From assembly GCA_965262145.1 (NCBI GenBank), contig OZ253501.1, positions 2,148,946 to 2,212,945 on the forward strand: 64,000 bases of DNA, written 5' to 3'. The position numbers and the translations under genes were made by a program. Of the stretch, positions 12,816-28,100 are shown in pieces; positions within the stretch are counted from its first letter, which is position 1, and each line of letters starts with the position of its first letter. The notes below the pieces were generated by a model. That model was not told the DNA's origin and searched no databases. It saw nothing but the letters and a program-made list of their open reading frames with translations. This stretch comes from Candidatus Latescibacterota bacterium (GTDB lineage: Bacteria; Latescibacterota; UBA2968).

Positions 12816-13882
12816 GATGGCTCGTTGGGCCAATGATCGTGCTTTTGCCACATGTTGGCATGGCTGCACAACTGAGCGGTTTTTACAAGAGTTTTTCCGT
12901 TGGCTTTGATTCGCCCCAAGCAGGCGACCCTATGACGGGTATGGTGAGTAATCGGCTGCGGCTTAATCTCGCCGATTCATTCAGTGAGCACCTGTCGTTT
13001 GATCTCGGCTACGACTTTATCCTGCGTATTCAGGATCCGTCGCTATTTGAGAATCAGGCGGAGGTCGCCAGCATCGATCCGCTCGATTATCGTATTGCCG
13101 ATCTGGATTCGCCTGTCTATCCCGGCGGCAATGATCCCATCGGTAGCGTTGGCGTGTTTCAAAATCTCGACCGCGCGAATGTAACAGCGCGTCTGGCATT
13201 TGCAGATGTGATTCTCGGACGCCAGGCGATTGCGTGGGGAAGTGCGCGGGTTATCAATCCGACGGATGTGATCGCGCCGTTTACATACGGCGAATTGGAC
13301 ACGGAAGACCGCACCGGTGTCGATGCTTTGCGGGTGCGCGTCCCGATCGGAGCACTGGGCGAAGTTGATGCGGGTTATGTGTTTGGTCGAGACTTTGCGG
13401 CTGATCGGAGTGCGTTTTTTGTCCGCAGTCAATTCAATGCGGCGGAAACCGATCTGTCGCCGCTGTTCGTCCGATTCCGCGAACAATTGCTTGTTGGCAT
13501 TGACGTCGCGCGTGGCATTGGGGGTTTTGGGGCGTGGGTAGAGGGTGTTCGCGTTTTTACGATGGGGCGAGATGCCGCGATTAGCGACTATTTTCGCGTA
13601 TCTACGGGTATGGATTACAGCTTTGGCGGTGAGACTTATGGATTTATCGAATACCACTTCAACGGAGCGGGGGTGCGCAATCCAGAGGATTATGTCACCA
13701 ACTTAGATCGCCCGACATATCGCGATGCTGCTGTCTATCTCATGGGTACTCACTACTTCGCGCTCGGCACCACCCATCAACTCACGCCGCTGATCGCGTT
13801 GAGCGGGCAGTCTCTTGCCAATCTCACCGACCCGTCGTTCTTTTTCTCTTCTATGATTGAGTCCGCTCCGAAAAGGGTGTAA
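12812..13882 (+). CDS. outer-membrane beta-barrel protein of the ABC export operon, 3' end disrupted by IS insertion
   Basis: Start overlaps the ATPase stop (ATGA). The body has an alternating beta-strand pattern. The last 7 codons (ESAPKRV*) are read from the IS inverted repeat. The native C-terminus (MIEYNIAQ...FAFRIYY*) lies at 15692-15838 on the far side of the IS. Confidence 0.65.
   Translation: MRWLVGPMIVLLPHVGMAAQLSGFYKSFSVGFDSPQAGDPMTGMVSNRLRLNLADSFSEHLSFDLGYDFILRIQDPSLFENQAEVASIDPLDYRIADLDSPVYPGGNDPIGSVGVFQNLDRANVTARLAFADVILGRQAIAWGSARVINPTDVIAPFTYGELDTEDRTGVDALRVRVPIGALGEVDAGYVFGRDFAADRSAFFVRSQFNAAETDLSPLFVRFREQLLVGIDVARGIGGFGAWVEGVRVFTMGRDAAISDYFRVSTGMDYSFGGETYGFIEYHFNGAGVRNPEDYVTNLDRPTYRDAAVYLMGTHYFALGTTHQLTPLIALSGQSLANLTDPSFFFSSMIESAPKRV
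13858..13875. repeat. IS left terminal inverted repeat
   Basis: tGAGTCCGCTCCGAAAAG; pairs with 15674-15691. Confidence 0.8.
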
Positions 13883-15690
13883 TAGAGTGTAATAGAGAGT
13901 ATAGGTTTTTTGTGAGCGTTGGGTCTGTCTGTGTCGCCTTTGGTGGTGACGTATGGTATTGGGGTCGTGTATAGAGTGCCCGTGCTTTGCAGGCGTGCTG
14001 ACGAGGTTACAACGTGCATGTTTGGGTCAACAGGGTGCACCTATTGGGGGGTCTTCATTTGGCTGGGCGAGATAATTCTTGATCCTTACCAGATTGATCC
14101 ATAAACTGCGACACCATGCCCAGACTTGATGGGGCAAAAGCCGACGATAACGCGTTTTACCCCCTGTTGTATGATAGCTCAACTGGAAGATGCTGGCCTC
14201 AACATTATGGCGTCGATTGCGGATGTGCACAGGCATGTCTTCAATCTGTTTTCGCCGGTGATAGGCAAGGATGTCTTGTTGGGTAATATATCGCGGCTTC
14301 CCTGCGATGAAGAGTTTGTATTTGCCCGGTTTATATTCTTGTGCAAGCTGAATTTCTCCACTGTGTCGATCAATGACTTCAACCCCTTCTTCTGTGCGTT
14401 CATATATCAAACGTCCCGGTCTGCCTTGTAGCCCACTGTAATAGAATTGCTTGTCCTCTTTGTCGGCATACGCACTGTTGCAAGCCGCATGGTAAGCCCC
14501 ATCCATCGACACGTCCGAGACCTGTCCGACCACCTCCTGTGTCCGTTCTATGGCCGGTTGGACAAAAGCGTTATCCGCAGCCGTTGCCGCTTTGACTTCT
14601 ACATCCGTGATCAAATTGAGGCCCTCCCCATCACAGGTCTCAGTGAGATTGACACTATATCCCTTGACCTTTTGCACCCCTTTTCTGCGAAAGGTCGCAT
14701 CTGGATCATGGACAGACTGTAAGGAGGAAGAAGAAATAGATTGTGATGGCTTGGGAAGCACTGATTTTTCACTGGCGGAGACACTGACGGTGTATTGGTC
14801 AGAAAAAATACGCACGATGAGACCATATTCATCGCTGTCTTTCTCCTGATAGGCCGCCAACAGTCTGCACAGTAACAAACCGAGGGCTTCGAGCTTCTCC
14901 CCTTTTTCTGCACTGCTGAGTGGATACCCAACCTGATGCGGCTTCACCTTGAGCAAGGCGTCCAAAACCTCGCGGTCTGCTGCGCATAATCGTTCCTTTG
15001 CGCCCTTGTCTAACGAGCCCCAGAACCCTTGTAAGCACCCAATGACCAACTGCAAGCGACAACAGGTGGCAATATTGGCGCCGATTAACTTGCTGTCCAT
15101 TCGCACCTGCTGACCCGTCACGCCAAAGACTTTAGCCTGTGTCTTGGTTAAGCTGGAAAACGTCTCCCCAATCAGATTGCGACCCCTTTGCAGGCCATAG
15201 GCATACAGGGACTGCTTGAACAGATAATACGTCGAAGCCACAGGCACCTCATCCGACAGATTCATCAACCCTAAAGCACGCATCACCAAGATGTTGAATC
15301 CACACTGCTCAAAAAGTTGCGCATCGCTCCACCCAAAGCCCTCTTTCAAGATCATCATCGACACCAAGCGGCGCACAGAAGCATTGGGACGGCCTTGCTC
15401 ACGATCAAACAAGACCGAAAAGACATCTTCATCTATCTTGCAGGTAATATGTGCGTAGAACACATTATGCCAAGCACTCGGATCATTCAACTGCGCCTGC
15501 TTGCGCCCTTTGAAATGGGACTCAAAACTCGAAAACAGATCCGGTTGGCTTGATGGGGCACTTCTTCTAAACATTGCGATACTCCCACAGGATTACTTTA
15601 TAGGTTATACATCCGTTACGAGGCCACAGCCTCACACACGTAATTTAACTCTTTTTACATAAAAATAAAATCGACTTTTCGGAGCGGACT
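13859..15690. mobile_element. insertion sequence (~1.83 kb), IS1182/IS5-superfamily-like, with 17-18 bp perfect terminal inverted repeats and a target-site duplication
   Basis: The left end GAGTCCGCTCCGAAAAG (13859-13875) is a perfect reverse complement of the right end CTTTTCGGAGCGGACTC (15674-15690). Flanking direct repeat ATGATT(GA) lies at 13853-13858/60 and 15691-15696/98. A single 515-aa DDE transposase ORF lies inside. The insertion splits the OMP reading frame exactly at the duplicated MIE codons. Confidence 0.8.
14027..15574 (-). CDS. DDE transposase (IS1182/IS5 superfamily-like)
   Basis: 515 aa. The motif SVHDPDATFRRKG...GYSVNL resembles the D-x-DA-x-x-K/R...GYK core of IS1182/IS4-IS5 transposases. 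Lies between the terminal IRs. Confidence 0.8.
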   Translation of the reverse strand: MFRRSAPSSQPDLFSSFESHFKGRKQAQLNDPSAWHNVFYAHITCKIDEDVFSVLFDREQGRPNASVRRLVSMMILKEGFGWSDAQLFEQCGFNILVMRALGLMNLSDEVPVASTYYLFKQSLYAYGLQRGRNLIGETFSSLTKTQAKVFGVTGQQVRMDSKLIGANIATCCRLQLVIGCLQGFWGSLDKGAKERLCAADREVLDALLKVKPHQVGYPLSSAEKGEKLEALGLLLCRLLAAYQEKDSDEYGLIVRIFSDQYTVSVSASEKSVLPKPSQSISSSSLQSVHDPDATFRRKGVQKVKGYSVNLTETCDGEGLNLITDVEVKAATAADNAFVQPAIERTQEVVGQVSDVSMDGAYHAACNSAYADKEDKQFYYSGLQGRPGRLIYERTEEGVEVIDRHSGEIQLAQEYKPGKYKLFIAGKPRYITQQDILAYHRRKQIEDMPVHIRNRRHNVEASIFQLSYHTTGGKTRYRRLLPHQVWAWCRSLWINLVRIKNYLAQPNEDPPIGAPC

Positions 15691-15691
15691 C
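15674..15691. repeat. IS right terminal inverted repeat
   Basis: CTTTTCGGAGCGGACTCa is the reverse complement of the left IR. Confidence 0.8.
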
Positions 15692-16839: not shown

Positions 16840-16885
16840 AAAATCCTCCACGAGAAATTGCTTGTGGGGGATTTTAGTTTTTCGC
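16840..16885. terminator. bidirectional Rho-independent terminator between convergent sugar-isomerase gene and the TIR/ATPase operon
   Basis: Stem aaatcctccac / gtgggggattt (one G-U pair) flanked by A-run and T-run on both sides. Confidence 0.5.
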
Positions 16886-17102
16886 TTAAATAGCTCGCTA
16901 TTCTGGTTTTAAAGGCATTCCATTTTCATAACTTTTTTAATTCCTCTTCAAGGTTTTCCACTGCCTCTATAGCCTCGGAAATCTCTTTTTTTATGATGTT
17001 GACAATGGTAGCATGGCTTAGCGGGTTCAGGATAATTTTGCGGTACAGTTCAATCTCGTTAATGAGAGACTCTTGTAAAAAGTCTCCATCTTTTATAGGC
17101 GT

Positions 17103-18332
17103 CTAGAAATCGTCACTTGGCAATTTCTTCGGATCTTCGGAGTAGCGGACAGGAAGTCTCTTTTTGTCGCAAAATTTCTTGATTGCCTCTTCAAAAGCGG
17201 TGCGAAGGTAAATTGCACAGGCTTTGTAGTCGTTGGCAGCGAAATACTCCTTCGCCTTTTCAAGATACGCTCGATCTTCTTCATAGACCGGAATTTCGTT
17301 TTTTGGAGTTTTTCTAAAGTAGAATTCAGCGTATTTCCATTTGCTATCTTCCGTCCGCTGCCTGACAATTTCATACCAGGTGCGATCATAGGTCAGGAAA
17401 AATATCTGATAATCAGAGAAGTATTCTTCTAAAATGTCAATCACCGGCAAGCGGTTTGACATGTCCAGGCCGATTAGCACATCATCCAATGCCAGAATTT
17501 TCATATCGCTTTCTGGCTGAACCAGTATTGACGAAAAGTAAATCGCAATAGCAATCGCGGACAGTTTTGCTTCATTCAGGAAGCGGTGATGTAAAGGGAT
17601 GTCTTTGTCAAAGAACTTGACCTTCAAGAGTATCTGCTCACCATCAAGCGTTTTTCTGGCGCGATTATATGTGATACCCTGAAAGTCGAAGTCGATGACA
17701 ATGTCGTATCCAAATTTTTCGAGGATTTCGAATGCTTTCGTTTGCAATTCTGTTAATCTGTCTGCTAATTCGAGGTTGAAATTCTCTATCTGTTCTTCAA
17801 GAATTGCAATTTGATTTGTCGCGCTTCGGCGTGGAAATGGTGGCTGAATGTCTTCCCAATCGTCGGCAAGGTTTCGACCTGTCAGAGCACTGATAGTATT
17901 TGCCAGGAGATTCTTAACCAGCAAATCGAAAACATTTACAATACCACTTTCGCGATGGACATAGTGTGTATCCAGAAGTGCCTTATAGTCGAGGAATCCC
18001 TTTGACTTTGATGCTTCAATAAACAGAGGATCATTTGTCTCTTTAACGTTCTGTGACCATTTGTAGGTTTGTTCATTTGACCGTCGGTCAGCGCGGAGAT
18101 GTAGTTTGATGTAGCCAGCATCCGCAATAAAGATGTTCTGATAGTTTTCAAATTGGTAGGAATCATCCTCACTCGATTCAAGAAAGCATTCTAACGCGAG
18201 ATAGAGAGATGATTTCCCACTTCCATTTTCACCATAGATTAGCAGATTTTTTCCTGCCCTATGCAGATTGATTTGATATGTCCCATAAAAGGCTCTGAAA
18301 TTTTTTATTTCAATTTTGGTAATTCTCACCAC
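17103..18332 (-). CDS. SMC/RecF-like ABC-type ATPase (AAA_15/AAA_23-like), second gene of a TIR-effector operon
   Basis: N-terminus ITKIEIKNFRAFYG...LIYGENGSGKSSLYLAL (Walker A), ABC signature-like LNEAKLSAIAIAIY, Walker B/D-loop ILALDDVLIGLD. GTG start overlaps the TGA of the upstream gene (GTGGTGA), indicating translational coupling. GC ~38-42%. Confidence 0.8.
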   Translation of the reverse strand: MVRITKIEIKNFRAFYGTYQINLHRAGKNLLIYGENGSGKSSLYLALECFLESSEDDSYQFENYQNIFIADAGYIKLHLRADRRSNEQTYKWSQNVKETNDPLFIEASKSKGFLDYKALLDTHYVHRESGIVNVFDLLVKNLLANTISALTGRNLADDWEDIQPPFPRRSATNQIAILEEQIENFNLELADRLTELQTKAFEILEKFGYDIVIDFDFQGITYNRARKTLDGEQILLKVKFFDKDIPLHHRFLNEAKLSAIAIAIYFSSILVQPESDMKILALDDVLIGLDMSNRLPVIDILEEYFSDYQIFFLTYDRTWYEIVRQRTEDSKWKYAEFYFRKTPKNEIPVYEEDRAYLEKAKEYFAANDYKACAIYLRTAFEEAIKKFCDKKRLPVRYSEDPKKLPSDDF

Positions 18333-20938
18333 TTGCCCTCAATGATACGGATAGGTTTTAAGCTATCGAGAAAGAAAAGATTCTTCCGGACCGCATGTGT
18401 TCTTTCATATAAATGCTCAAAGATACCCCGGAATGCAGCCATTTTATCACCCGGGATCTCGTCCGGTTGCGGCAATTGTTCGTCTAAAAGCGGTTTGAAG
18501 AAATATTTCTCACCTTGATAAAGTGCGTCGGGCAGATAGCACTCGTAAACCAATCCGTCAATGATTCGCTCAAAATATTTGAGCATCATATAGTCACGGG
18601 CATGTGCCAAATCTTTGCTATTTGTCGTTGGCTGTTTCTGGAGATAGATGAGATAATTGACGATTTTGCCAATCAGTGCCTTTTGGGTTGAGATGACATT
18701 GGGGATAGGGATCTGCTGCATATAACCACTGAGTGCTCGAAGTTCATCGGCTGTTAATTGGTCTGACATCTGTGAATAAAACCATTCCACAACGCTGGAA
18801 TTGAGGATACCGCATAACCATGTTTCCTCAGTTGGGATAAGGTAGCAGGTATCCCCACAGTAAAGGCCATTCGTATCCACAGCGAAAGTTTGGTGGTTAT
18901 AGTGGTTTGGACAGACCAGCTTTGGTTGTGTAAAATACTCGGAATTACCGGGGACGGCCTGTAGCTCGTACCATTCCTGTTTTCCCGCTCTTTTGATCAA
19001 GGAATCCCTGTATTTTTTAAGGTGTTTCTGAATTGCCGGATAGGCGTCTATATCTACTCCTTGATGGGCAAAGATCAACCACAAATCCTGTGCATCCACC
19101 TGCCAGCGTCTTATATCCCGTCCGTGCAAAAATGGCTTCAAAATGTCAGCAGATAAAGGATGGTCGGCAATGAGCTTATCCCGCGTCTTTCCATCTACCA
19201 CAAACGCATCGTCCATACCTGTCTTGATACCGAAATGAGATGGTATATTGACATATTGTCCTAACGGTATTCCTGTGTTGCGAAGTTCCTCGAGCAAATT
19301 CACTACATCAGGCGATTGATTAGCACTTAAAATTTCTTCCATATTACGGGAATAGTCCCATTCGTCCGAGTATTGGTCTTGACGGGAGGGGAATCTCGGT
19401 GGACGAAGAGATGCGTGTTGGCTCAAGCCTTTTTGCATCTTGGGAAAACGGCTCCGTCGCCGTTGCGTGAGGATCGCCGCAATGTCTTTTGGTAACTGAA
19501 AACCATGCCTCCGCTCAAATGCCTCAACATTTTTGTAATCGTTGCGAAATGCCGCGATAATATCCGCCCCCCTGCTTTTGGCAACAGTCAGGTCAGATCT
19601 GGCTCCTTGCCAATTTTGCAAGTGCAACCAGCACACACCGCGACTGTAATAAGCCAAGGCAGACTTTGGGACTAGTTCTATCGCCTTGTTATAGTCTTCA
19701 ATGGCCAGGTTATACACGCCTTTTCTATAATAAATAACACCGCGATTGTAATAAGCGAAGCCATAATCCGGATTTAAGTGTATCGCCTTGCTGTAGTCCC
19801 CAAAGGCGAGATCAACTTGGCCGTTGCTGACGTAGGCATTGCCACGATTGTTATAGGCTTGGACATCATCCGGATTTAGCTCTATCACCTTATTGTAGTC
19901 TGCGATAGCACGGTCAAGCTCACCTTGGTTGCTATAAGCATTTCCGCGATTGTAATAGGCATCGACATAATCTCGGTTCAGTTCTATTGCCTTGTTGTAG
20001 TCTGCGATAGCACGGTCATATGCGCCTTTGCTGAAGTAAGTATTTCCGCGATTGTTATAGGCCACGGCAAGCTTTGGATTTAGTTCTATTGCCTTGTTGT
20101 AGTCTGCGATAGCACGGTCATATGCGCCTTTGCTGAAGTAAGTATTTCCGCGATTGTTATAGGCTTCGGCAAACTCTGGATTTAGTTCTATCGCCTTGTT
20201 GTAGTCTGCGATAGCACGGTCATATGCGCCTTTGCTGTGGTAATCAACACCGCGATTGTAATAGACAGGGGCAAGCTCTGGATCAAGTTCTATCGCCTTG
20301 TTGTAGTCTGCGATAGCACGGTCAAGCTCATCTTGATTGCTATAAGCATTTCCGCGATTGTTATAAACAGCGGCATAACGTGGATTACGTTCAATTACAT
20401 GTGAGTAGGCTTCTATCGCATTGTCGTTTTGCTTTAGCATCATCCGAAAATTACCCTGTTGAAATAACCATTTTATTTCTTTTTCGATACTATCAGATGA
20501 CTGAACTCGCATTTCGCCAACGACTTTTCGAAGACCCGCTACCACACTTTGCCAGCCTTTACTCTCAGGTTGCCATTCGTTAATGGGCTTGCCTTGATCA
20601 GGCAAAGCTTGGATGTCGCTGAGTTCATGATTTAGCCAATCGCAACGCTCAAGAATTATGGGGATGACTTTTATATTTTCCTTTAATACTTCTACCAATT
20701 CTTTGTTGTAGTTTTTAGAGGCAAGACTCGAAGCGGAGACGAGGTAGAGTAGAATGTCCGAATCGGCAAGATTTTTAGAAATGTCTTCATACCACTTGTC
20801 GCCCGGGAGGATTTCATCATCATGCCAAATTGTTATCATGCCTTGTTGTTCCATTACATTAAGGCACTGTCTCAATTTGTCCTTTGAGCCTGTATCCTCA
20901 TGCGAATAAGTAATAAATACTTTTAGTGGTTCGCCCAT
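18326..20938 (-). CDS. TIR domain - TPR repeat (~9) - TaqI-like C-terminal target-recognition domain fusion protein (870 aa)
   Basis: N-terminal VFITYSHED...DILLYLVSASSLASKNYNKEL is a TIR fold with the conserved Glu retained. The middle region has ~9 34-aa TPRs (AIADYNKAIELNP...AYNNRGN). The C-terminus has IPSHFGIKTGMDDAFVVD...LKPFLHGRDIRRWQV plus the downstream pattern typical of TaqI/Eco57I/MmeI-type TRDs. GGAG lies 7 nt before the ATG. GC ~41%. Confidence 0.8.
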   Translation of the reverse strand: MGEPLKVFITYSHEDTGSKDKLRQCLNVMEQQGMITIWHDDEILPGDKWYEDISKNLADSDILLYLVSASSLASKNYNKELVEVLKENIKVIPIILERCDWLNHELSDIQALPDQGKPINEWQPESKGWQSVVAGLRKVVGEMRVQSSDSIEKEIKWLFQQGNFRMMLKQNDNAIEAYSHVIERNPRYAAVYNNRGNAYSNQDELDRAIADYNKAIELDPELAPVYYNRGVDYHSKGAYDRAIADYNKAIELNPEFAEAYNNRGNTYFSKGAYDRAIADYNKAIELNPKLAVAYNNRGNTYFSKGAYDRAIADYNKAIELNRDYVDAYYNRGNAYSNQGELDRAIADYNKVIELNPDDVQAYNNRGNAYVSNGQVDLAFGDYSKAIHLNPDYGFAYYNRGVIYYRKGVYNLAIEDYNKAIELVPKSALAYYSRGVCWLHLQNWQGARSDLTVAKSRGADIIAAFRNDYKNVEAFERRHGFQLPKDIAAILTQRRRSRFPKMQKGLSQHASLRPPRFPSRQDQYSDEWDYSRNMEEILSANQSPDVVNLLEELRNTGIPLGQYVNIPSHFGIKTGMDDAFVVDGKTRDKLIADHPLSADILKPFLHGRDIRRWQVDAQDLWLIFAHQGVDIDAYPAIQKHLKKYRDSLIKRAGKQEWYELQAVPGNSEYFTQPKLVCPNHYNHQTFAVDTNGLYCGDTCYLIPTEETWLCGILNSSVVEWFYSQMSDQLTADELRALSGYMQQIPIPNVISTQKALIGKIVNYLIYLQKQPTTNSKDLAHARDYMMLKYFERIIDGLVYECYLPDALYQGEKYFFKPLLDEQLPQPDEIPGDKMAAFRGIFEHLYERTHAVRKNLFFLDSLKPIRIIEGKW
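19870..20330. repeat. near-identical 102-bp tandem direct repeats (in-frame TPR-coding units)
   Basis: The unit ttctattgccttgttgtagtctgcgatagcacggtcatatgcgcctttgctgaagtaagtatttccgcgattgttataggc... recurs at ~19984, 20086, 20188 and 20290 with only a few substitutions. More diverged copies flank these. Confidence 0.8.
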
Positions 20939-21136: not shown

Positions 21137-22027
21137 TTACCAACTGCGATATTGGTCAATATTCTCTTTGGCGTCAGGCCACCAGGATGGTTGAGAAGGC
21201 TGATTCTGCGGATCCCATGAGCCGATGAGTTGTGGCCCTGTAGGCATGATTATAAAATACCAGTATTTGTTATAGATGCAACCTGATGGACAATCTCCCC
21301 AGGCATCTCGAAATAAGTAGGAAAAACCGCTCGGTGTGGATAGTGGGTAAATATTTGGAGAATCACCTGCGTAACCATCGGGTTCGGCATATTTCACACC
21401 GGGCAGGTTGGCATAGAGATTCGCCAGATGTCGCGGGTGGAGAATGCCGTCAAAGGAGAGCACCACCCATGGATTGGGTGTATCAAAGGAAGTTGTCTTA
21501 ATCTCCGATATCTGGTATTTCAGATTCAAGACATCCCAGGCGCGATAACTGCCTTCCTTTATCATTCTGTTGGTAGTCGTGTCAACGCCAATAATAATGC
21601 GACCTGGTACCCAGGGTGGGCGGTATGAAAGGGAGTTGATTGCAGCATCTATGTTCCCGTATTCCGCTCGGATCTGGGTGAGATGTGCTTCAATGTCATG
21701 TGAAAGAGATTGTGGAGGTTGGATCTCTCCTGAAATGGAGAGTGCGATCAACTGCGCTTCCTCTGAGACTGGTGGTTGAATCGTCTTCCCGAAGTCTGCG
21801 GCGAAAAGTAAAAAATCTTCAAAATCGACGATGCCATTGTTGCTGAGGTCGAAAATGTCGAGGTCAGCAGATGTCTCGGAACCAAAAGCACCTGCAAAAA
21901 GGATGAAGTCAGCGAAATCGACAGTTCCGTTATCATTGAAGTCCGGACTCTTTGTTTGTGCGCCTGTCAGACCTGGCATTATTGCAAGTGATAGATAGCT
22001 CGCAATGAGAACAACGTGCTTTGCCAT
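21137..22027 (-). CDS. secreted protein with two dockerin-type (EF-hand-like Ca-binding) repeats and an uncharacterised C-terminal domain
   Basis: Signal peptide MAKHVVLIASYLSLAIMPGLTGA, then DFNDNGTVDFADFILFAGAFG and DLSNNGIVDFEDFLLFAADFG (dockerin type I pattern). GC ~43-47%. Confidence 0.55.
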   Translation of the reverse strand: MAKHVVLIASYLSLAIMPGLTGAQTKSPDFNDNGTVDFADFILFAGAFGSETSADLDIFDLSNNGIVDFEDFLLFAADFGKTIQPPVSEEAQLIALSISGEIQPPQSLSHDIEAHLTQIRAEYGNIDAAINSLSYRPPWVPGRIIIGVDTTTNRMIKEGSYRAWDVLNLKYQISEIKTTSFDTPNPWVVLSFDGILHPRHLANLYANLPGVKYAEPDGYAGDSPNIYPLSTPSGFSYLFRDAWGDCPSGCIYNKYWYFIIMPTGPQLIGSWDPQNQPSQPSWWPDAKENIDQYRSW

Positions 22028-22070: not shown

Positions 22071-22958
22071 TTAACCCGATAGGGTGCGTTTCATTGTTGC
22101 GCCCATTTCAGCAGGGCTTTCGCACACGTGAATACCCGCATCCTCAAGCGCGGCCATTTTATCGGCGGCGGTGCCTTGTCCGCCAGAAATAATCGCGCCC
22201 GCATGCCCCATGCGTCGGCCCGGAGGTGCTGTTTGTCCTGCGATAAAGCTGACCACGGGTTTGTCGAAGTGCGCTTTAACATAAGCGGCGGCTTCTTCTT
22301 CGGCGGTGCCGCCAATTTCCCCGATCATGATAACGGCGTCTGTGTCGGAGTCGTCCTTAAAGAGCGCGAGGCAATCCGTAAAGGTTGTACCTATGATGGG
22401 ATCGCCACCAATGCCCACACACGACGATTGACCAAAGCCACTATCGGTGAGTTGCGAGACTGCTTCATAGGTGAGCGTACCGCTGCGCGAAATGACGCCA
22501 ATGCGACCTTCGCGGTGAATCGCGCCGGGCATAATGCCAATTTTGCACTTGCCCGGAGAAATCAGGCCCGGACAGTTGGGGCCGATCAAGCGCGTATTTT
22601 TATCGGCCAGATAGTGTTTGGCTTTTAGCATGTCGAGCACGGGTATGTTCTCAGAGATGCAAACGACCAGAGGCAGACCTGCATCGGCTGCTTCCATGAT
22701 GGTGTCGGCGGCAAAGGGCGCGGGAACAAAATTGGCCGATGCCGTGGCTCCTGTTTGTTCTACGGCATCGGATACGGTGTCAAAAACCGGTATGCCATCA
22801 ACGCTCTCGCCACCTTTGCCCGCGTTGACCACGCCGACGATTTGAGTACCGTATTCGACCATTTGCTGCAGATGAAATCGCGCTTCGCCACCCATTGCTC
22901 TGCTGCTGGAAAAGCTCTGGACGATCACGCGGGTATTGTTGTCAATGAGAATACTCAT
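22071..22958 (-). CDS. sucD: succinyl-CoA synthetase alpha subunit
   Basis: [14 protein letters not shown]...[18 protein letters not shown]...SRSGTLTYE...GIGGDPI...MGHAGAII. No sucC is adjacent. Confidence 0.9.
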
Positions 22959-22976
22959 AAAATCTCCAGTGTTTGT

Positions 22977-23654
22977 TTACTCAAGGGTTCGTTCTTCGAT
23001 TGTGCCATCTGTTTTGCCGATGATGATGTGATCTGTCAGTCCTATAAAAAGGCCGCATTCGACGACGCCGCACAAGGCGTTGATTTTTTTTTCGAGTGTG
23101 GGCGGGGCGTCAATGCGACCAAAGTCGCAATCGATGATGTAATTGCCGTTGTCTGTGACAAAAGGCGTATTGTCCTGTGCGTTGCGAAGTGTGGGGTGAC
23201 AGCCCAGGTCTGCGAGCAGGCGTTGTATGGCTTGCCAGCCAAATGGGATGACCTCAACGGGCAGGGGAAAAGCTCCCAGGTGCGCCACCGGTTTGGATTC
23301 GTCGGCGACGATGATTTCTCTGTCGGATAGTGACGCGACGATTTTTTCTCGCAAAAGCGCGCCACCACCACCTTTTATGAGATTAAAGTACGGGTCAAAT
23401 TCATCTGCGCCGTCAATGGTTAAGTCTATACGGGTGACTTTGTCGAAGTCGATGAGGGGAATATTTTCCGATTCCGCCTGAATGCGCGATTGCTCTGAGG
23501 TGGGTATGCCACATATATCGAGTCCTTCAGTGATGTGCTGGCCGAGTTTTTGAATTGCAAAAAAAGCCGTTGATCCTGTGCCCAGACCGACGACCATACC
23601 ATCTTCGACATATTCGGCAGCCCGTTCTCCTGCCAATTTTTTAGGATGAATTGT
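22977..23654 (-). CDS. rpiA: ribose-5-phosphate isomerase A
   Basis: VGLGTGST...DGADE...LIKGGGGALLREK...AIQRL. Start taken at MTIHPKK; the ORF track gives 23720. Confidence 0.85.
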   Translation of the reverse strand, partial: TIHPKKLAGERAAEYVEDGMVVGLGTGSTAFFAIQKLGQHITEGLDICGIPTSEQSRIQAESENIPLIDFDKVTRIDLTIDGADEFDPYFNLIKGGGGALLREKIVASLSDREIIVADESKPVAHLGAFPLPVEVIPFGWQAIQRLLADLGCHPTLRNAQDNTPFVTDNGNYIIDCDFGRIDAPPTLEKKINALCGVVECGLFIGLTDHIIIGKTDGTIEERTLE

Positions 23655-23824
23655 CATGGCTCTCCCATTTCGAATGATGAAAACAAGCGAAAAGATAAAT
23701 GTAAGATAATGATTTGGCAACGATTTTGACCCATACAGGCATGGTTTTTTTTATTTCTTTTTTTTTGAAATTGTTATACTCTATCAAATAGATAGGGCAA
23801 ATATGATTAAATTTGGAGAAAAAT

Positions 23825-24661
23825 ATGGCTTATCGCACACTGGAAGATTTTTTTGGTGATATTGTAGGGAAAGCGCGTCGGGGACAGGGGATTTCGGAAT
23901 CGGAGTTGGCGCAACAGGTGGGGCTGAGTGTCCGACAAATTGAGCAAATAGAATCGTACGAGCTGACACCTGATGAGCAGAACATTTGCAGACTTGCAGA
24001 CGCGCTGCATCTCGATGGCGAAAAACTGGTAGAAGTGGCGCGTGGATGGGTGCCACTACAGGGCAATGCGGTGTTTGAAGACGAGGCCATGCGGGTTGAC
24101 CGATTGATTCTCGATGCGGGTATGACGGTGAATTGTTATGTACTAACCTGCAAGGCATCGGGCAAAGGGGCTGTGATTGATCCCGGTGGGCAGGCGCAGT
24201 TGATATTGGATGCGATTGCCGATATACAGGTAACGCACATTTTGCTCACACATGGACACGGCGATCACGTTGGGGCACTCGAAGTAGTTGCTGATGCGAC
24301 ACAGGCGCAGGTATGCGGTTGCGAGCGCGATTTTGCGTTGATGGGCGGGCGCAGCCAGCGGGTGACTGAACGCGTGGATGAGGGGTGGCAAACAGCGATT
24401 GGTGAACTCGGTATTGATACGGTGAGTTTGCCCGGGCACACAGGTGGTGGCATTGGTTATTATACTGTACCCATATTTTTTTCGGGTGACGCGCTATTTG
24501 CGGGTTCTCTGGGAGGGGCAAGAGGGGATGCCTACCGTGGGCAAATTCAGGCCGTGCGTGCGAAGGTGCTTTCTCTGCCAGGGGAGACGACCATTTTTCC
24601 GGGTCATGGTCCAATTACGTCTGTAGCACAGGAGTTGGCGCATAATCCCTATTTTGTTTGA
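23825..24661 (+). CDS. XRE-type HTH domain fused to MBL-fold metallo-hydrolase (glyoxalase II-like)
   Basis: HTH ISESELAQQVGLSVRQIEQIE, then HILLTHGHGDHVGA and later H/D ligands. ATG at 23825 has GGAG upstream; the ORF track used a TTG at 23813. Confidence 0.7.
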   Translation: MAYRTLEDFFGDIVGKARRGQGISESELAQQVGLSVRQIEQIESYELTPDEQNICRLADALHLDGEKLVEVARGWVPLQGNAVFEDEAMRVDRLILDAGMTVNCYVLTCKASGKGAVIDPGGQAQLILDAIADIQVTHILLTHGHGDHVGALEVVADATQAQVCGCERDFALMGGRSQRVTERVDEGWQTAIGELGIDTVSLPGHTGGGIGYYTVPIFFSGDALFAGSLGGARGDAYRGQIQAVRAKVLSLPGETTIFPGHGPITSVAQELAHNPYFV

Positions 24662-24668
24662 GATGGGT

Positions 24669-24702
24669 CCCTGTGCTGAGATCCAGGGCTTTATTTTTTT
24701 TT
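24669..24702 (+). terminator. possible Rho-independent terminator after the HTH-MBL gene
   Basis: Short stem ccctg / caggg followed by an 11-nt T-run. Confidence 0.4.
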
Positions 24703-24888
24703 AGATGCCTGGGTTTCAACCCATTGTCCAATGGCCTGTCGTATGGATTCGACTGCGGCTTTTTTGCGCTCAAGACGATCAATATGCGTACGTAGCTGAT
24801 CGATTTGTGCGTTGAGGTCTTGAAGTTCTCCATTTGCTGCTTCAAGTGCTTGTTGATACAGAGGTTCGCTATGGGTCGGTTCTGCCAT
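24691..24888 (-). CDS. small coiled-coil protein (65 aa), function unknown
   Basis: A strong RBS AAGGAG lies 8 nt upstream of the ATG. It does not overlap neighbouring genes and the residue composition is heptad-like. Confidence 0.45.
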   Translation of the reverse strand: MAEPTHSEPLYQQALEAANGELQDLNAQIDQLRTHIDRLERKKAAVESIRQAIGQWVETQASKKK

Positions 24889-25016
24889 GAATTAGGCTCC
24901 TTGTAGTAAAAAATGAAATATGCGATCCATCTAAACATAACCTGTGCGGCCTTGGGTCGTCAAGCGCGAAAAAGTCCGCTCGCAGTTGATTCGACAAAGC
25001 GGTGTATTTTTTTATT

Positions 25017-25045
25017 TGCAACCTGTTACAATTTTTTACAATTTT
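25017..25045 (+). promoter_or_regulatory. candidate sigma70-type promoter for the large OMP gene
   Basis: TTGCAA, ~16-nt spacer, TACAAT; ~150 nt upstream of the ATG at 25190. Confidence 0.3.
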
Positions 25046-25189
25046 CATGGGAACGAAGTGACCCAGCCGGTTGTTTAATGCTGTAAGTGTAGATTTTCAA
25101 GGTATGCAACTTTCTTTTCATTCACGCATTTAAAAAGAAGGTCGTAAGTTCCAATACATAGCGAGATAGGATATTCAAAGGAGCTAAAC

Positions 25190-28100
25190 ATGGCTCGGTG
25201 GTGTGTTTCCGCGCGAAGTACAATACTGATCAATCTGTTCGTCCTTATTTTGGGTGTTTCAACTTCTGCTTTTGGCCAGGAGTATTTTGGCAAAAACAAG
25301 GTCAATTACAGCCAATATACATGGCATTATATCGATAGTGAACACTTCACGATTTATTTTGATAAAGGTTCGCTGGGCCTGGCCGAGTTTGTTGCCAAAG
25401 AAGCCGAAAGGTCTTTGGTACACATTGAGAAAACCCTGAAATATACGCTGAAGGATCGCTATCCTATTGTTATTTACAATTCTCACAATGGGTTTTCGGT
25501 GTCCAATATTTCCAGCATGGAACAGTCTGAGTTTACGGGTGGGTTTACCGAGTTTGCACAGGGGCGCGTGGTGATTCCATTTACGGGATCTTATGGCGAT
25601 TTGCAACATGTTATTCACCATGAACTGGTTCACGCGGTTACGATTGAGTTGTGGACAGGTGGTGGCTGGTTGGGGTCTCTGGTTTCGCAAACATCGATAT
25701 TGCCTCCCTTGTGGATTGCCGAGGGTATCGCCGAGTACGTGTCTCGATATGGCTGGCACAAAGAGCACGACAATTTTATGCGCGATGCAACCATTACCGG
25801 ATATGTACCGACTATCGAAATGATGTCCCTGAGTTATTTTGCCTATCCCGGTGGCAATTCGGTTTTTTATATGATCGAACAGGAATACGGTAAGGATAAG
25901 GTGGCGTCCTTTATTTCTTCTTTCCGCACAGCCAAAAATCCCGATAAAGCACTCAAAGCATCTCTGGGATTTGGGATGAAGGAATTGGAAGAAAAATATC
26001 AATTGTGGCTCAAGCGGCAATACTGGAATGAGATCAATTTGCGCCATACACCCAAAGAGATGGCAACAAATTTGACGGAAAGCGAAGATAGGCGCTCGTT
26101 TTATAATCTGGCTGCTGCGTTATCCCCACAAGGCGACAAGGTTGCGTATTTGACCGACCGAAATGGGACTTTTGACATTTATTTGATGTCGGCGATTGAC
26201 GGCAAAGACCTGGGGCGTTTGGTCGAGGGACAAAAGTCGTCTGATTTTGAGTCGATGTTTGTTTTGCGGCCCGGATTTACCTGGTCGCCGGATGGCCGGC
26301 ATATTGCATTCGCCGCCAAATCAAATAATAAGAATACCCTGTATATCCTCGATGTTAAAAAGAAGCAGATTCGCAAGCGATTTAAGTTTGACCTTGACGG
26401 GCTGTTCGAACCCACCTGGTCGCCCGATGGAGAAAAAATTGCCATCGCGGGTATTGAAGATGGCTGGTCCGATATCTATGTGGTCGATTTGAACGACGAG
26501 TCGCTTACGCGGCTTACAAATGATCCCTATGACGAGCGGCATCTAGATTGGTCGCCCGATGGCACGTGGATCGCCGTGAGTTCTGATCGTCCCGATACCC
26601 ATTTGAAGTTTAGCGGCGAGAAGGATTTTGTGTTTGGGCAGTACGATATTTTTCTTGTGCGTGCAGATGGCTCTGAGATGCGCCGCATTGTTGCGTCTAA
26701 AGACGCCGAAGATTCGCATCCCGTGTGGGGTGCCGATAGCAAACACGTCGCCTTTGTTTCTGACCGCACGGGTGTGGGTAATATCTATGTTGCCAATATT
26801 GACAGTACACAGGCGATATATCCCATTACCAATTTGCTGTCGGGAGCGCAATATCTCGATTGGTCAGCTGATGGCAAAAAGATCGTGTTCAATGCGTTTC
26901 ACAAGGGTGCCCTGGATATATTTGTGATGCGCGACCCACTTACACAGCGAAAAGAAATGGCGGATTTGCCGCGTACCCGCTTTGTCAAGCGCCTTGCCGG
27001 TGAAGATGAAAAGATGTTTGTCGAGTTGCAAAAAGAAAAATATGCGAGTCGCAATATTGCCAAAGTAGAAGCCGACAGTACCGTGGTCGATTCTACGGTA
27101 GAAAAAACAGAAAAGAAAGTGGCACAGTGGATTTCCGATCAGGAAGCACTTGCAGCGACAGAAAGTGCGCCTGCTGATAGTACGGTTGAAATCGATACCA
27201 CGCATCCCGTCGCTGGCAGTCCAGAAATGGCAGATACCGGCAAACAAGGGGTGAAAAACTGGGGTGAAAAGGAATTTTTGGTTAAAAAGTACAAGCTGAA
27301 ATTCAAACCCGAACTGTTTGGTGCTCAGGCGGGGTTTGATACATTCTACGGTGTGAGTAGTTCTATTGTATTGTCGATGAGTGATGTGATGGGTGATCAC
27401 CGCGCCACGTTGGTGACGAGTTTGAATTTTTCGCTCAAAGACAGTGATTTTCTGCTCGGTTATGCCTATTTGAGGAATCGCACAAATTACGGGGCACAGC
27501 TTTTTCACACGCGGTTCTTCTTCTTTGATAATACAGGTCGTCTGACTGCAGATCGATATTACGGGCTTGCCGGGGGTCTTGAGCGACCGTTTAATCGGTT
27601 CGCCCGTTTGGAACTCAGTACGCGTTTTGTATCTGTTGATCGCGAAGAGTTGGTTACCAATAGCAACACTCCTAATGATTATTTGTACCAGCCGGGCTTT
27701 CGCGGCGTTGGGCGGTTTACAGGCGTATTGATCAACCGCCGTCGGGCGGCTATTGGCGAAGTGGCTTTGGTGGGCGATAGCGCGCTGTACAGTTTGTTTG
27801 GCGCGGTAGATGGGCATCGCTATAGGTTGAATTTTGAAGGCTCTGGAGCGGGCATGAAGTTTGCCACATTTACGCTGGATTATCGCAAATATATGCGGTT
27901 GTTAAACGAATATACCTTTGCCATCCGCATGTCGGGCGGGACGAGTTACGGCCCCAACAGCACTGTGTTTTTTCTGGGCGGCGTGAACAATCCAGTCAAT
28001 CCGACATTTTCAACCATTGCCAGTGTTGATCAGAGTCGCGTATTTTTCTCTTCTTACGTCTGGCCCTTGCGCGGCGCGAGGTTGCTCGAAATGGCGGGTG

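What the first reader, a model, noticed from the sequence alone, without database searches (positions are those of the whole stretch)
17103..20938. Low-GC two-gene operon: TIR-TPR-TaqI_C-like fusion protein translationally coupled to an SMC/ABC-type ATPase. Candidate undescribed anti-phage system.
Directly in the sequence, an 870-aa protein with an N-terminal TIR fold (FITYSHED...SxxxxSxxYNKEL, catalytic Glu retained) is followed after a 7-nt overlap (GTGGTGA) by a 409-aa RecF/SMC-like ABC ATPase (GENGSGKSS, ABC signature, Walker B/D-loop). Both sit in a ~4 kb stretch of ~40% GC inside a ~55% GC chromosome, next to an IS. From established knowledge, TIR domains are NAD+-cleaving effectors in Thoeris, Pycsar/CBASS-associated and other abortive-infection systems. 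Small ABC/AAA_15 ATPases are the sensor or partner subunit in two-gene defence systems such as Septu (PtuA), PARIS (AriA) and Gabija (GajA). I know of no described system that pairs a TIR effector carrying its own DNA-recognition domain with a PtuA-like ATPase. The inference is a sensor (ATPase plus DNA-reading domain) and effector (TIR NADase) Abi-type module.
Basis: partly seen in the sequence, partly recalled or inferred. Interest (0 to 1): 0.9.

Follow-up and report, generated by a model that had tools for sequence, protein, structure and literature searches.

The report
TIR-TPR-TRD protein with HEPN ATPase
A conserved two-gene cassette of sponge-symbiont bacteria joins an NAD-cleaving TIR head and the DNA-reading tail of a restriction enzyme to a PrrC-like ATPase–RNase; it is probably an untested suicide-type anti-phage module, and the copy in this window is broken by a stop codon.

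Summary
Both ORFs are real and the domain calls hold: TIR, eight or more TPRs and a TaqI_C recognition domain in gene A, and an ABC ATPase in gene B.

Three corrections:
- The 409-aa ATPase is truncated. A single TGG>TAG change at base 17104 removes 58 residues. A near-identical genome and about 870 family clusters encode 467–500 aa.
- The lost part belongs to a C-terminal HEPN domain. The protein is a Rad50/SMC-like ABC head plus HEPN, which is the PrrC/RloC architecture, not PtuA-like.
- The pair is a derived branch of a widespread three-gene restriction-like operon: HKD-SNF2 helicase, Eco57I-type methylase with TaqI_C, and ABC-HEPN ATPase. In 87 of 96 loci with an upstream ORF the ATPase follows a protein ending in TaqI_C plus a ~69-aa tail, usually with a 4-nt overlap.

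In sponge symbionts of three phyla the helicase is gone. The methylase part is replaced by TIR-TPR, FRG-TPR (another NAD-consuming fold) or TPR alone.

No PADLOC or NCBIfam system model fits.

Best reading: an uncharacterised abortive-infection module, a new variant built from known parts, with about a third of copies decayed. Function is inferred, not shown.

The parts
18326..20938 (-). Gene A, 870 aa: TIR-TPR-TaqI_C(TRD)-tail fusion protein (stop codon 18326-18328)
   Evidence: ORF. Pfam and PADLOC domains. 100% identical at nucleotide level to the L001 gene.
20489..20938 (-). TIR domain (aa 1-150; Pfam TIR_2 hit aa 7-111 = 20606-20920). The putative catalytic Glu is E80.
   Evidence: TIR_2 8.3e-16, TIR 1.4e-6 and ThsB_TIR 6.5e-5 on the isolated N-terminus. 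PADLOC ThsB1 2.9e-24. E80 is invariant in 28 homologues.
19574..20461 (-). TPR array (aa ~160-455, eight or more repeats). It includes a 102-bp x 5.4 tandem DNA repeat at 19820-20365.
   Evidence: TPR_1 7e-85, 8 stretches. TRF result. Repeat number varies between homologues, whose proteins run from 651 to 1254 aa.
18536..19303 (-). TaqI_C-type target-recognition domain (aa ~546-801), homologous to the C-terminal part of Eco57I/type IIG enzymes
   Evidence: Pfam TaqI_C 2.7e-15. PADLOC REase_MTase_IIG 1e-26, aa 546-800 against profile 868-1131 of 1148.
18329..18535 (-). C-terminal ~69-aa tail (aa 802-870). It is shared only by TaqI_C proteins that are followed by the ATPase, so it is the inferred ATPase-docking element.
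   Evidence: Matches to ATPase-coupled partners run to query position 397-400 of the 400-aa C-terminal query in more than 70 loci. Neighbouring stand-alone Eco57I-type enzymes stop matching at position 289-331 and end 15-47 residues later.
16926..18329 (-). Gene B, an ABC-HEPN ATPase, 467 aa if read through. It is interrupted by an in-frame TAG at 17103-17105 (W409*, G>A at 17104).
17325..18329 (-). Rad50/SMC-like ABC ATPase head (aa 1-335). Walker A GENGSGKS is at 18210-18233. Walker B is ILALDD, with Asp where Glu is usual. The H-loop position is Tyr.
   Evidence: SMC_N 4e-12, aa 3-321. PDB profile search best hit is the Rad50 head 3qku, 1.2e-13, over positions 1-316. Foldseek on a low-confidence model returns SMC, Rad50 and RecF heads. 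Motifs are read from alignment A3.
16929..17276 (-). C-terminal HEPN-fold domain (aa ~352-467) with family-conserved motifs YxRxAFE and ExxRxxvLNPLSH. The stop codon removes everything from aa 409 on, including the LNPLSH motif.
16840..16875 (.). 15-bp-stem hairpin between gene B and the convergent downstream gene. It is a likely bidirectional terminator and lies after the full-length gene B stop, not after the premature one.
   Evidence: The T-run on the minus strand is visible.

Best explanation
Gene A and gene B form a real, conserved two-gene cassette. It is a derived branch of a widespread restriction-like operon.

The ancestral operon encodes three proteins:
- an HKD-nuclease/SNF2-helicase;
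- an Eco57I-type N6-methylase that ends in a TaqI_C recognition domain plus a short tail;
- a translationally coupled ATPase made of a Rad50/SMC-like ABC head and a C-terminal HEPN domain. This is the architecture of the anticodon nucleases PrrC and RloC.

In sponge-symbiont lineages the helicase gene was lost. The nuclease/methylase part of the middle protein was replaced by an NAD-consuming head (TIR, or FRG in sister loci) plus a variable TPR array. The TaqI_C domain, the tail and the ABC-HEPN partner were kept.

Shown: the domains, the coupling, the conservation, the head swapping and the descent from the three-gene operon.

Inferred mechanism:
1. The TaqI_C+tail module docks the ABC-HEPN ATPase.
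2. The complex monitors DNA or a phage factor that targets restriction enzymes. The TPR array provides ligand binding or oligomerisation.
3. ATP-dependent activation switches on the TIR NADase, and possibly the HEPN RNase.
4. The infected cell stops growing (abortive infection).

The copy in this window has a recent nonsense mutation that removes most of the HEPN domain, so it is probably impaired.
For: Domains.

Truncation: the window differs from L001 by a single base in the 4-kb pair, and that base makes TGG into TAG.

Obligate coupling:
- 87 of 96 loci with an upstream ORF have a TaqI_C+tail protein directly before the ATPase.
- 57 of those have a 4-nt overlap.
- ATPase identity across these loci goes down to 31%.

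Ancestral triad:
- 30 full-length methylase partners carry Eco57I and TaqI_C domains (PADLOC type IIG, down to 4.5e-239).
- 24 of the 30 are preceded by an HKD-SNF2 gene (PADLOC 'HKD+Snf2', 4e-127).
- The triad also occurs on IMG/VR viral contigs.
- A minimal TaqI_C + ATPase pair sits on a conjugative Nostoc plasmid.

TIR branch:
- Intact pairs occur in Latescibacterota, Poribacteria and Gemmatimonadota at unrelated chromosomal sites.
- The TIR motif and E80 are invariant.
- The N-terminal head swaps between TIR of two subtypes, FRG, or none. FRG belongs to the ART superfamily and has been proposed to act as an NADase (PMC9503650).
- TPR copy number is variable.

Precedent: PrrC is an ABC NTPase plus HEPN RNase. 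A linked restriction-modification enzyme keeps it silent, and it fires when phage inhibits that enzyme (PMC1484252, PMC3710099).

Other: low GC relative to flanks. The ATPase family has 872 clusters at 50% identity with E<=1e-30.
Against: - No experiment shows defence, NADase or RNase activity for any member.
- The locus is not in a defence island. Its neighbours are housekeeping genes.
- No methylase accompanies the pair in this genome, so a self/non-self rule based on DNA recognition is unexplained.
- The HEPN motif is non-canonical: Leu replaces the Arg of RNxxxH, and an Arg sits 9 residues before the His. RNase activity is therefore uncertain.
- Walker B has Asp-Asp rather than Asp-Glu and the H-loop His is usually Tyr, which suggests weak hydrolysis.
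- About a third of the sponge-clade loci examined are disrupted: the window, L006, L012, L013, L014 and L104. That fits either cost of carriage or relaxed selection.
- The full-length ATPase model was poor (pLDDT 66).
- Physical contact between the tail and the ATPase is inferred from co-occurrence only.
Confidence: 0.58

Rival explanations
1. PrrC-like guard in which the HEPN RNase of the ATPase is the primary effector. The TaqI_C+tail fragment serves as a built-in bait that mimics a restriction enzyme's DNA-binding module. Phage anti-restriction proteins such as DNA mimics bind the bait and release the ATPase-HEPN. TIR or FRG is an added second effector.
For: - The ABC+HEPN architecture equals that of PrrC and RloC (PMC3710099).
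- Minimal pairs of TaqI_C-only protein plus ATPase, with no other effector domain, exist on a Nostoc conjugative plasmid and in L023.
- TPR-only partners without TIR are intact (L015).
- The TaqI_C domain of gene A is unusually conserved between genomes, at 63-82% identity. Neighbouring restriction-enzyme recognition domains diverge to 24-66%. That fits a fixed bait better than a variable specificity module.
- N435 and H439 of the HEPN domain are invariant across the family.
- Some members carry tandem HEPN copies.
Against: - The canonical Arg of the HEPN Rx4-6H motif is missing.
- No PADLOC or NCBIfam PrrC/RloC model matches.
- Nothing shows that anti-restriction proteins bind TaqI_C domains.
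- The TIR Glu is under clear conservation, so TIR is not a passenger.
Confidence: 0.2
2. TIR (or FRG) acts as a signal generator, as ThsB does in Thoeris. It makes an ADP-ribose-derived messenger that activates an effector encoded elsewhere, or the HEPN domain, rather than depleting NAD+ itself.
For: - The best PADLOC match of the TIR is ThsB (2.9e-24), and Pfam ThsB_TIR is above its cutoff.
- PMC9503650 lists TIR and Frg domains among signal-generating enzymes.
Against: - No ThsA-like, SLOG, Macro, CARF or SAVED sensor domain is present in either protein or in neighbouring genes in any of the loci examined.
- Neighbours differ between genomes, so no third conserved gene exists in the TIR branch.
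Confidence: 0.1
3. Not a defence system. The TIR-TPR protein is a eukaryote-like protein used by sponge symbionts to interfere with host signalling. Alternatively, the cassette is a decaying remnant of a restriction system with no present function.
For: - The TIR/FRG branch was found only in sponge-associated MAGs and sponge metagenomes.
- Roughly a third of the loci are disrupted, including this window.
- There is no defence-island context.
- That TPR and TIR proteins are recurrent 'eukaryote-like' features of sponge symbionts is general knowledge, not tested here.
Against: - No signal peptide or secretion-associated genes are evident. The N-terminus is MGEPLKVFITYSHED.
- Gene A is fused to a DNA-enzyme recognition domain and translationally coupled to a cytoplasmic Rad50-like ATPase. 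Relatives of that ATPase always sit in restriction-like operons, on plasmids and on viral contigs.
- Intact copies retain 60-90% identity across three phyla, with invariant catalytic motifs. This argues for purifying selection on a working cassette.
Confidence: 0.1

Closest known systems
PrrC (and RloC) anticodon nucleases linked to type Ic restriction-modification EcoprrI
   Same: The partner protein has the same two-part build: an N-terminal Rad50/SbcC-like ABC NTPase and a C-terminal HEPN domain (PMC3710099). The family is genetically welded to a restriction-modification-type methylase/recognition protein.
   Different: - No sequence-level membership. No PrrC or RloC model hits it.
- The HEPN motif is LNxxxH rather than RNxxxH.
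- The partner is an Eco57I/type IIG-like protein, not a type I HsdMSR enzyme.
- In this branch the partner has lost methylase and nuclease and gained a TIR-TPR head.
- No tRNA cleavage is known.
Thoeris ThsB and other bacterial TIR effectors (TIR-STING, TIR-SAVED, SPARTA, TIR-NLR)
   Same: A ThsB-like TIR domain with the conserved Glu. It is the expected NAD+-cleaving or signal-making module.
   Different: - No ThsA, cyclase, Argonaute or STAND NTPase is present.
- TIR is fused to TPRs and a restriction-enzyme recognition domain.
- It is paired with an ABC-HEPN ATPase.
Type IIG restriction-modification enzymes of the Eco57I/MmeI family
   Same: The last ~330 residues of gene A are homologous to the TaqI_C recognition region of these enzymes. 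The ancestral partner of the ATPase is a full-length enzyme of this kind.
   Different: Gene A has no methyltransferase or endonuclease domain. It carries an extra ~69-aa tail that stand-alone enzymes lack.
ABC-ATPase two-gene defence systems (PARIS AriAB, Septu PtuAB, Gabija GajAB, HEC-01 to HEC-03)
   Same: The general logic is an ABC ATPase paired with an effector-bearing protein. PARIS senses an anti-restriction protein.
   Different: Only the P-loop region matches those ATPases. No TOPRIM, HNH, NERD or PIN partner is present. The head is closer to Rad50/SMC than to the OLD family.
Helicase-methylase-ATPase systems (Hma / BREX-related 'BR' type 2, class 1 DISARM, MADS)
   Same: The ancestral triad shares an HKD-SNF2 helicase and an N6-methylase with BR type 2. 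It gives partial DrmD, DrmMI and HmaA hits. MAD3 is the only PADLOC ATPase model that aligns over most of the head (2.5e-11).
   Different: The ATPase is a 470-aa ABC-HEPN protein, not DUF499 (PMC12839542). DrmA and DrmB are absent. NCBIfam MAD3 scores 12.8 bits against a cutoff of 420.

Membership tests
Thoeris | ThsB-type TIR protein | tested here: met
   PADLOC ThsB1 2.9e-24. Pfam ThsB_TIR 23.7 bits against a cutoff of 21.2. This holds at domain level only.
Thoeris | Adjacent ThsA effector (SIR2 or TM domain with a SLOG/Macro sensor) | tested here: not met
   Neighbouring genes are a dockerin-like protein, sucD, rpiA and an AP_endonuc_2-like gene. None is seen in any related locus.
Septu (PtuA/PtuB) | PtuA-family ATPase | tested here: not met
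   NCBIfam PtuA scores 15.5 bits against a cutoff of 500. PADLOC PtuA hits cover only residues 3-102.
Septu (PtuA/PtuB) | HNH nuclease PtuB | tested here: not met
   No HNH domain in either protein or in the neighbours.
PARIS (AriA/AriB) | AriA OLD-type ABC ATPase plus TOPRIM AriB | tested here: not met
   The AriA model matches residues 1-67 only. No TOPRIM protein is present.
PrrC/RloC anticodon nucleases | N-terminal ABC NTPase fused to a C-terminal HEPN nuclease domain | tested here: met
PrrC/RloC anticodon nucleases | Sequence membership, and the canonical HEPN Rx4-6H catalytic motif that PMC3710099 assigns to PrrC and RloC | tested here: not met
   No PrrC or RloC model hit in NCBIfam or PADLOC. 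The motif is R-x8-H / L-N-x3-H, not Rx4-6H. R376, E380 and H439 are conserved and loosely recall the PrrC Arg-Glu-His triad of PMC1484252. Their equivalence is not established.
PrrC/RloC anticodon nucleases | Embedded in, and silenced by, a restriction-modification enzyme | tested here: inconclusive
   The family is always coupled to a methylase/recognition protein. In this window only the recognition-domain remnant is left. Silencing is not testable here.
PrrC/RloC anticodon nucleases | tRNA anticodon-loop cleavage | not testable with these tools
   Needs biochemistry.
Type IIG restriction-modification enzyme (Eco57I/MmeI) | TaqI_C target-recognition domain | tested here: met
   Pfam 2.7e-15. 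PADLOC type IIG 1e-26.
Type IIG restriction-modification enzyme (Eco57I/MmeI) | N6-adenine methyltransferase domain and N-terminal endonuclease in the same chain | tested here: not met
   Gene A has no Eco57I, N6_Mtase or MmeI_Mtase hit. Full-length partners in other loci do.
STAND/NLR-like TIR-NTPase-TPR immune proteins (Avs, bNACHT, TIR-NLR) | Central STAND NTPase between effector and repeats | tested here: not met
   TIR ends near aa 150 and the TPRs start near aa 160. No NB-ARC, NACHT or STAND hit. The PADLOC TIR-NLR hit covers the TIR only, at 0.0012.
MADS | MAD3 ATPase equivalog together with MAD6-8 | tested here: not met
   NCBIfam MAD3 scores 12.8 bits against a cutoff of 420. No other mad genes are nearby.
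Hma / BREX-related (BR) systems | DUF499 ATPase (HmaC) | tested here: not met
   The ATPase is a 467-aa ABC protein with no DUF499 hit. The definition of Hma is taken from PMC12839542 and 10.1101/2024.01.29.577857.
Lamassu | LmuB SMC with long coiled coil, plus an LmuA effector | tested here: not met
   LmuB hits are partial, 5.7e-12 over residues 171-335. No coiled-coil arm of SMC length and no LmuA.

The most novel reading that the evidence does not exclude
The cassette is an 'integrated-decoy' guard. A restriction enzyme's DNA-recognition domain has been detached from its enzyme and kept as bait for phage anti-restriction factors. The bait is wired through a Rad50-like ABC switch to two suicide effectors at once: a TIR or FRG NAD+ consumer on the bait protein, and a HEPN RNase on the ATPase. 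This would be a bacterial counterpart of plant NLR integrated decoys and a TIR-armed descendant of the PrrC principle.
Probability: 0.15. Interest if true: 0.85.

Novelty: new variant of a known kind. Interest (0 to 1): 0.6.

Why it matters
If the pair works as inferred, a restriction-enzyme recognition domain can be reused as the sensor of an abortive-infection module. It would also show that a PrrC-type ABC-HEPN guard can be re-armed with NAD-consuming heads, either TIR or FRG.

The work exposes a large unnamed family: about 870 clusters at 50% identity of ABC-HEPN ATPases. These are welded to Eco57I-type methylases and HKD-SNF2 helicases, and current defence-finder models do not capture them as a system.

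The TIR/FRG branch is very abundant in sponge microbiomes. Thousands of 90%-identity clusters were found, so it may shape phage–symbiont dynamics there.

For this window specifically, the practical message is that the ATPase is truncated. Any cloning should use the intact allele.

Tried and rejected
- **Hma system.** Its ATPase is DUF499, a different family. Rejected.
- **MADS.** MAD3 is the only PADLOC ATPase model aligning over most of the head, but NCBIfam MAD3 is far below its cutoff and no other mad genes are present. Rejected.
- **PtuA, AriA or GajA identity.** Only the P-loop region matches. Rejected.
- **IS as a mobility vehicle for the pair.** The IS is absent from the near-identical genome and is separated by another gene. 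Rejected.
- **Dedicated methylase partner.** In five Poribacteria loci an Eco57I-type enzyme lies just upstream. These enzymes are highly diverse (24-66% identity), lack the tail and do not co-vary with gene A's recognition domain. They are absent in Latescibacterota and Gemmatimonadota loci. I treated this as possible co-location, not a component.
- **'TaqI_C-only 385-aa' proteins as a separate architecture.** The two I inspected (L014, L104) are fragments of disrupted genes, one by frameshift and one by IS insertion. Genuine minimal pairs do exist elsewhere (L103, L023).
- **Full-length AF2 model of the ATPase.** It had pLDDT 66 and the P-loop region was below 50. Its Foldseek hits (TM 0.2-0.3) are used only as weak support.
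- **PADLOC scan of ten C-terminal domains.** It found nothing but one weak Cas13a-HEPN hit.
- **Krishnan et al. 2020 ABC-ATPase survey (PMC7544218).** It could not be read, so prior description of the ancestral triad there cannot be excluded.
- **Literature searches for TaqI_C/TIR/ATPase combinations.** These found no description of the pair.

Full report
**1. The observation**

The two minus-strand ORFs exist as described: 18326..20938 (870 aa) and 17103..18332 (409 aa).

Gene A:
- Pfam gives TIR_2 (aa 7-111, 1.1e-15), eight TPR_1 stretches (7e-85) and TaqI_C (aa 601-745, 2.7e-15). All are above the curated cutoffs.
- PADLOC matches the N-terminus to ThsB-type TIR (2.9e-24). It matches aa 546-800 to the C-terminal part of type IIG restriction-methylase models (1e-26).
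- No methyltransferase or nuclease domain is detected in gene A.

Gene B matches SMC_N, AAA_23 and AAA_15.

The pair is the lowest-GC 4-kb stretch of the window, at 43.2% against 50.1% elsewhere.

**2. The ATPase in this window is truncated**

The closest database protein, P0001, is 100% identical over the 409 residues but is 467 aa long.

Its genome (L001, a 7.1-Mb contig) has the same neighbourhood. Aligning the two DNAs shows one difference at the end of the ORF: TGG in L001 and TAG in the window.

Across the whole comparison:
- gene A is identical at every base;
- gene B differs only at 17104 (W409*);
- just two other differences lie between 15.7 and 22.1 kb.

The frame continues undisturbed to 16929, and a strong hairpin terminator follows at 16840-16875.

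The mutation is therefore very recent. Alternatively it is a population variant or a consensus error.

The IS at about 13.9-15.7 kb is absent from L001 and has nothing to do with the pair.

**3. What the ATPase is**

The N-terminal 335 residues are an ABC head.
- A profile of 30 diverse family members finds Pyrococcus Rad50 heads best in the PDB (3qku, 1.2e-13, over positions 1-316), then SMC heads.
- PtuA of retrons appears only at 2e-4 and only at the P-loop.
- PADLOC and NCBIfam models for PtuA, AriA, GajA, LmuB, PbeC and MAD3 match weakly or only at the P-loop.
- Walker B reads ILALDD, and the H-loop position is Tyr, His or Phe.

The C-terminal ~115 residues carry family-conserved positions: D367, E380, N435 and H439 are invariant, and R376 is nearly so. 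The motifs are YxRxAFE and ExxRxxvLNPLSH.

Evidence that this domain has the HEPN fold:
- Six of 30 members hit Pfam HEPN (best 1.9e-4) and three hit DUF4145.
- A 59%-identical relative, P0241, has two tandem copies and passes the DUF4145 cutoff.
- An AF2 model of the domain alone has pLDDT 74.7 and pTM 0.70.

The protein is therefore a Rad50-like ABC NTPase fused to HEPN. That is the architecture Anantharaman et al. describe for PrrC and RloC (PMC3710099).

The canonical Arg of RNxxxH is replaced by Leu, so catalytic competence is open.

The stop codon in the window removes everything after helix 2 of this domain, including LNPLSH.

**4. The pair is conserved**

A genome scan found ten loci, all in Latescibacterota or Poribacteria MAGs (one is labelled only as an uncultured bacterium). 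In nine, a TIR-TPR-TaqI_C protein lies directly upstream of the ATPase. In the tenth (L011), a full-length methylase takes that place.

A Gemmatimonadota sponge MAG has the same pair at an unrelated site.

Latescibacterota relatives share the window's flanking genes.

TIR sequences from 28 homologues keep the SxxSLxSxNCNxEL motif with the Glu invariant.

TPR number varies widely. Proteins range from 651 to 1254 aa, and two near-identical contigs give 751 and 887 aa. The window itself has a 102-bp x 5.4 DNA repeat.

The N-terminal head is exchangeable:
- a second TIR subtype (L010);
- an FRG domain (L016 and L017; PF08867, 6e-15);
- no head at all (L015).

FRG is an ART-superfamily domain that has been proposed to act as an NADase or signal generator in prokaryotic immunity (PMC9503650). 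A TIR-to-FRG swap is what one expects of an NAD-directed effector position.

Six of about nineteen sponge-clade loci are disrupted: the window, L006, L012, L013, L014 and L104.

**5. Where it comes from**

A metagenome scan with an ATPase profile returned 80 loci at 31-69% identity. Over all 104 loci held:
- 96 have an upstream same-strand ORF;
- 87 of those are homologous to the last ~330 residues of gene A, right to its C-terminus;
- 57 overlap the ATPase start by 4 nt.

Thirty complete partners are 1100-1450-aa Eco57I-type methylases with TaqI_C (PADLOC type IIG, down to 4.5e-239). Twenty-four of them are preceded by a ~1100-aa PLD/HKD-nuclease + SNF2-helicase gene (PADLOC 'HKD+Snf2', 4e-127).

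The same triad occurs on IMG/VR contigs.

A minimal pair (338-aa TaqI_C protein + 477-aa ATPase) sits on a conjugative Nostoc plasmid, annotated only generically.

Stand-alone Eco57I-type enzymes next to some Poribacteria loci lack the final ~69 residues. That tail is specific to ATPase-coupled proteins, and I infer that it docks the ATPase.

The ATPase family comprises 872 clusters at 50% identity with E<=1e-30.

TPR-containing partners are confined to ATPases at least 59% identical to the window's. The TIR/FRG branch therefore looks like a single derived clade.

**6. Mechanism**

Shown:
- the domain content;
- the translational coupling;
- co-conservation of TaqI_C+tail with ABC-HEPN;
- descent from a helicase-methylase-ATPase operon;
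- effector-head swapping.

Inferred:
- The ancestral triad is an ATP-dependent restriction-modification-like system with a built-in PrrC-type second-line RNase.
- The sponge branch has discarded DNA cleavage and methylation. It keeps the recognition-domain/ATPase core as a sensor-switch that controls a TIR (or FRG) NAD+ consumer, and possibly the HEPN RNase, giving abortive infection.
- The TPR array may bind a phage protein or drive oligomerisation of the TIR domains.

What the core senses is unknown. Gene A's recognition domain is conserved at 63-82% identity between genomes, while neighbouring restriction enzymes' domains diverge to 24-66%. This argues for a constant ligand rather than variable DNA specificities. 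It leaves room for a 'bait for anti-restriction proteins' reading.

**7. Comparison with known systems and novelty**

The cassette fails the membership tests for Thoeris, Septu, PARIS, Gabija, Lamassu, MADS, Hma/BR, STAND-type TIR proteins and type IIG enzymes. Details are in the membership table.

It works most like PrrC (ABC-HEPN tied to a restriction-modification protein) combined with a TIR effector.

I found no description of the pair or of the triad in the searchable literature. The 2020 ABC-ATPase survey by Krishnan et al. could not be read and may mention the triad.

I rate the finding as a new variant of a known kind: a candidate defence module made of familiar domains in an undescribed combination and with a clear evolutionary origin.

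Interest is moderate to high for defence-system specialists. It is tempered by three things: the complete lack of functional data, the non-canonical HEPN and ATPase motifs, and the fact that this window's copy is truncated.

Noticed in passing
window 13861-15691: Insertion sequence encoding a 515-aa DUF772-type transposase. It is absent from the near-identical genome L001. Its ends are inverted repeats (GGAGCGGACTCA), and an 8-bp overlap of the flanking alignments (ATGATTGA) suggests a target-site duplication.
   Followed up: partly
window 22152-26565 versus L001: 42 of the 46 single-base differences between the window and L001 in the 12.6-kb block cluster in 4.4 kb of housekeeping genes. The 6 kb containing the cassette is almost identical. 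This looks like a recombination tract or mixed-strain assembly.
   Followed up: no
L011, L024, L047, L100, L101 and about 20 further loci: A widespread, apparently unnamed three-gene operon: HKD-nuclease/SNF2 helicase (~1100 aa), Eco57I-type methylase with TaqI_C (~1200-1350 aa) and ABC-HEPN ATPase (~470-500 aa). It is also present on IMG/VR viral contigs.
   Followed up: partly
L103 (Nostoc cf. commune plasmid NZ_AP025734.1, 195530-197976): A minimal two-gene form on a conjugative plasmid of a cultured cyanobacterium: a 338-aa TaqI_C-only protein with a 4-nt overlap to a 477-aa ATPase. This is a convenient experimental entry point.
   Followed up: partly
L016 4515-7004 and L017 1791-7004: Sister loci carry FRG-TPR-TaqI_C proteins (829 and 1737 aa) in place of TIR-TPR-TaqI_C. 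FRG is an ART-superfamily fold proposed to consume NAD+.
   Followed up: yes
P0241 (L098 8001-9821) and P0266: ATPase variants of about 600 aa with two tandem copies of the C-terminal HEPN domain. Other family members of 590-740 aa have C-terminal extensions with no Pfam match.
   Followed up: partly
L007, L009, L010, L013, L014 (Poribacteria): A diverse Eco57I-type type IIG enzyme lies on the same strand just upstream of the TIR-TPR-TaqI_C gene in all five Poribacteria genome loci. It is absent in Latescibacterota and Gemmatimonadota loci. Whether this is a functional link or a shared insertion site is unresolved.
   Followed up: partly
L019, L020, L025: In three loci one to four small ORFs (112-165 aa, no match to the query domains) sit between the methylase and the ATPase. 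This recalls the 'embedded gene' pattern described for other defence operons.
   Followed up: no
window 21137-22027 (minus strand): A 296-aa predicted secreted protein with two dockerin/EF-hand-like DxNxDGxVDFxDF repeats and no Pfam hit. It is syntenic with the cassette only in Latescibacterota relatives, so it is probably unrelated.
   Followed up: no
window 19820-20365: A 102-bp unit repeated 5.4 times at 82% identity, encoding near-identical TPRs. Copy number differs between near-identical contigs elsewhere (L096 against L097), which suggests ongoing repeat expansion and contraction.
   Followed up: partly
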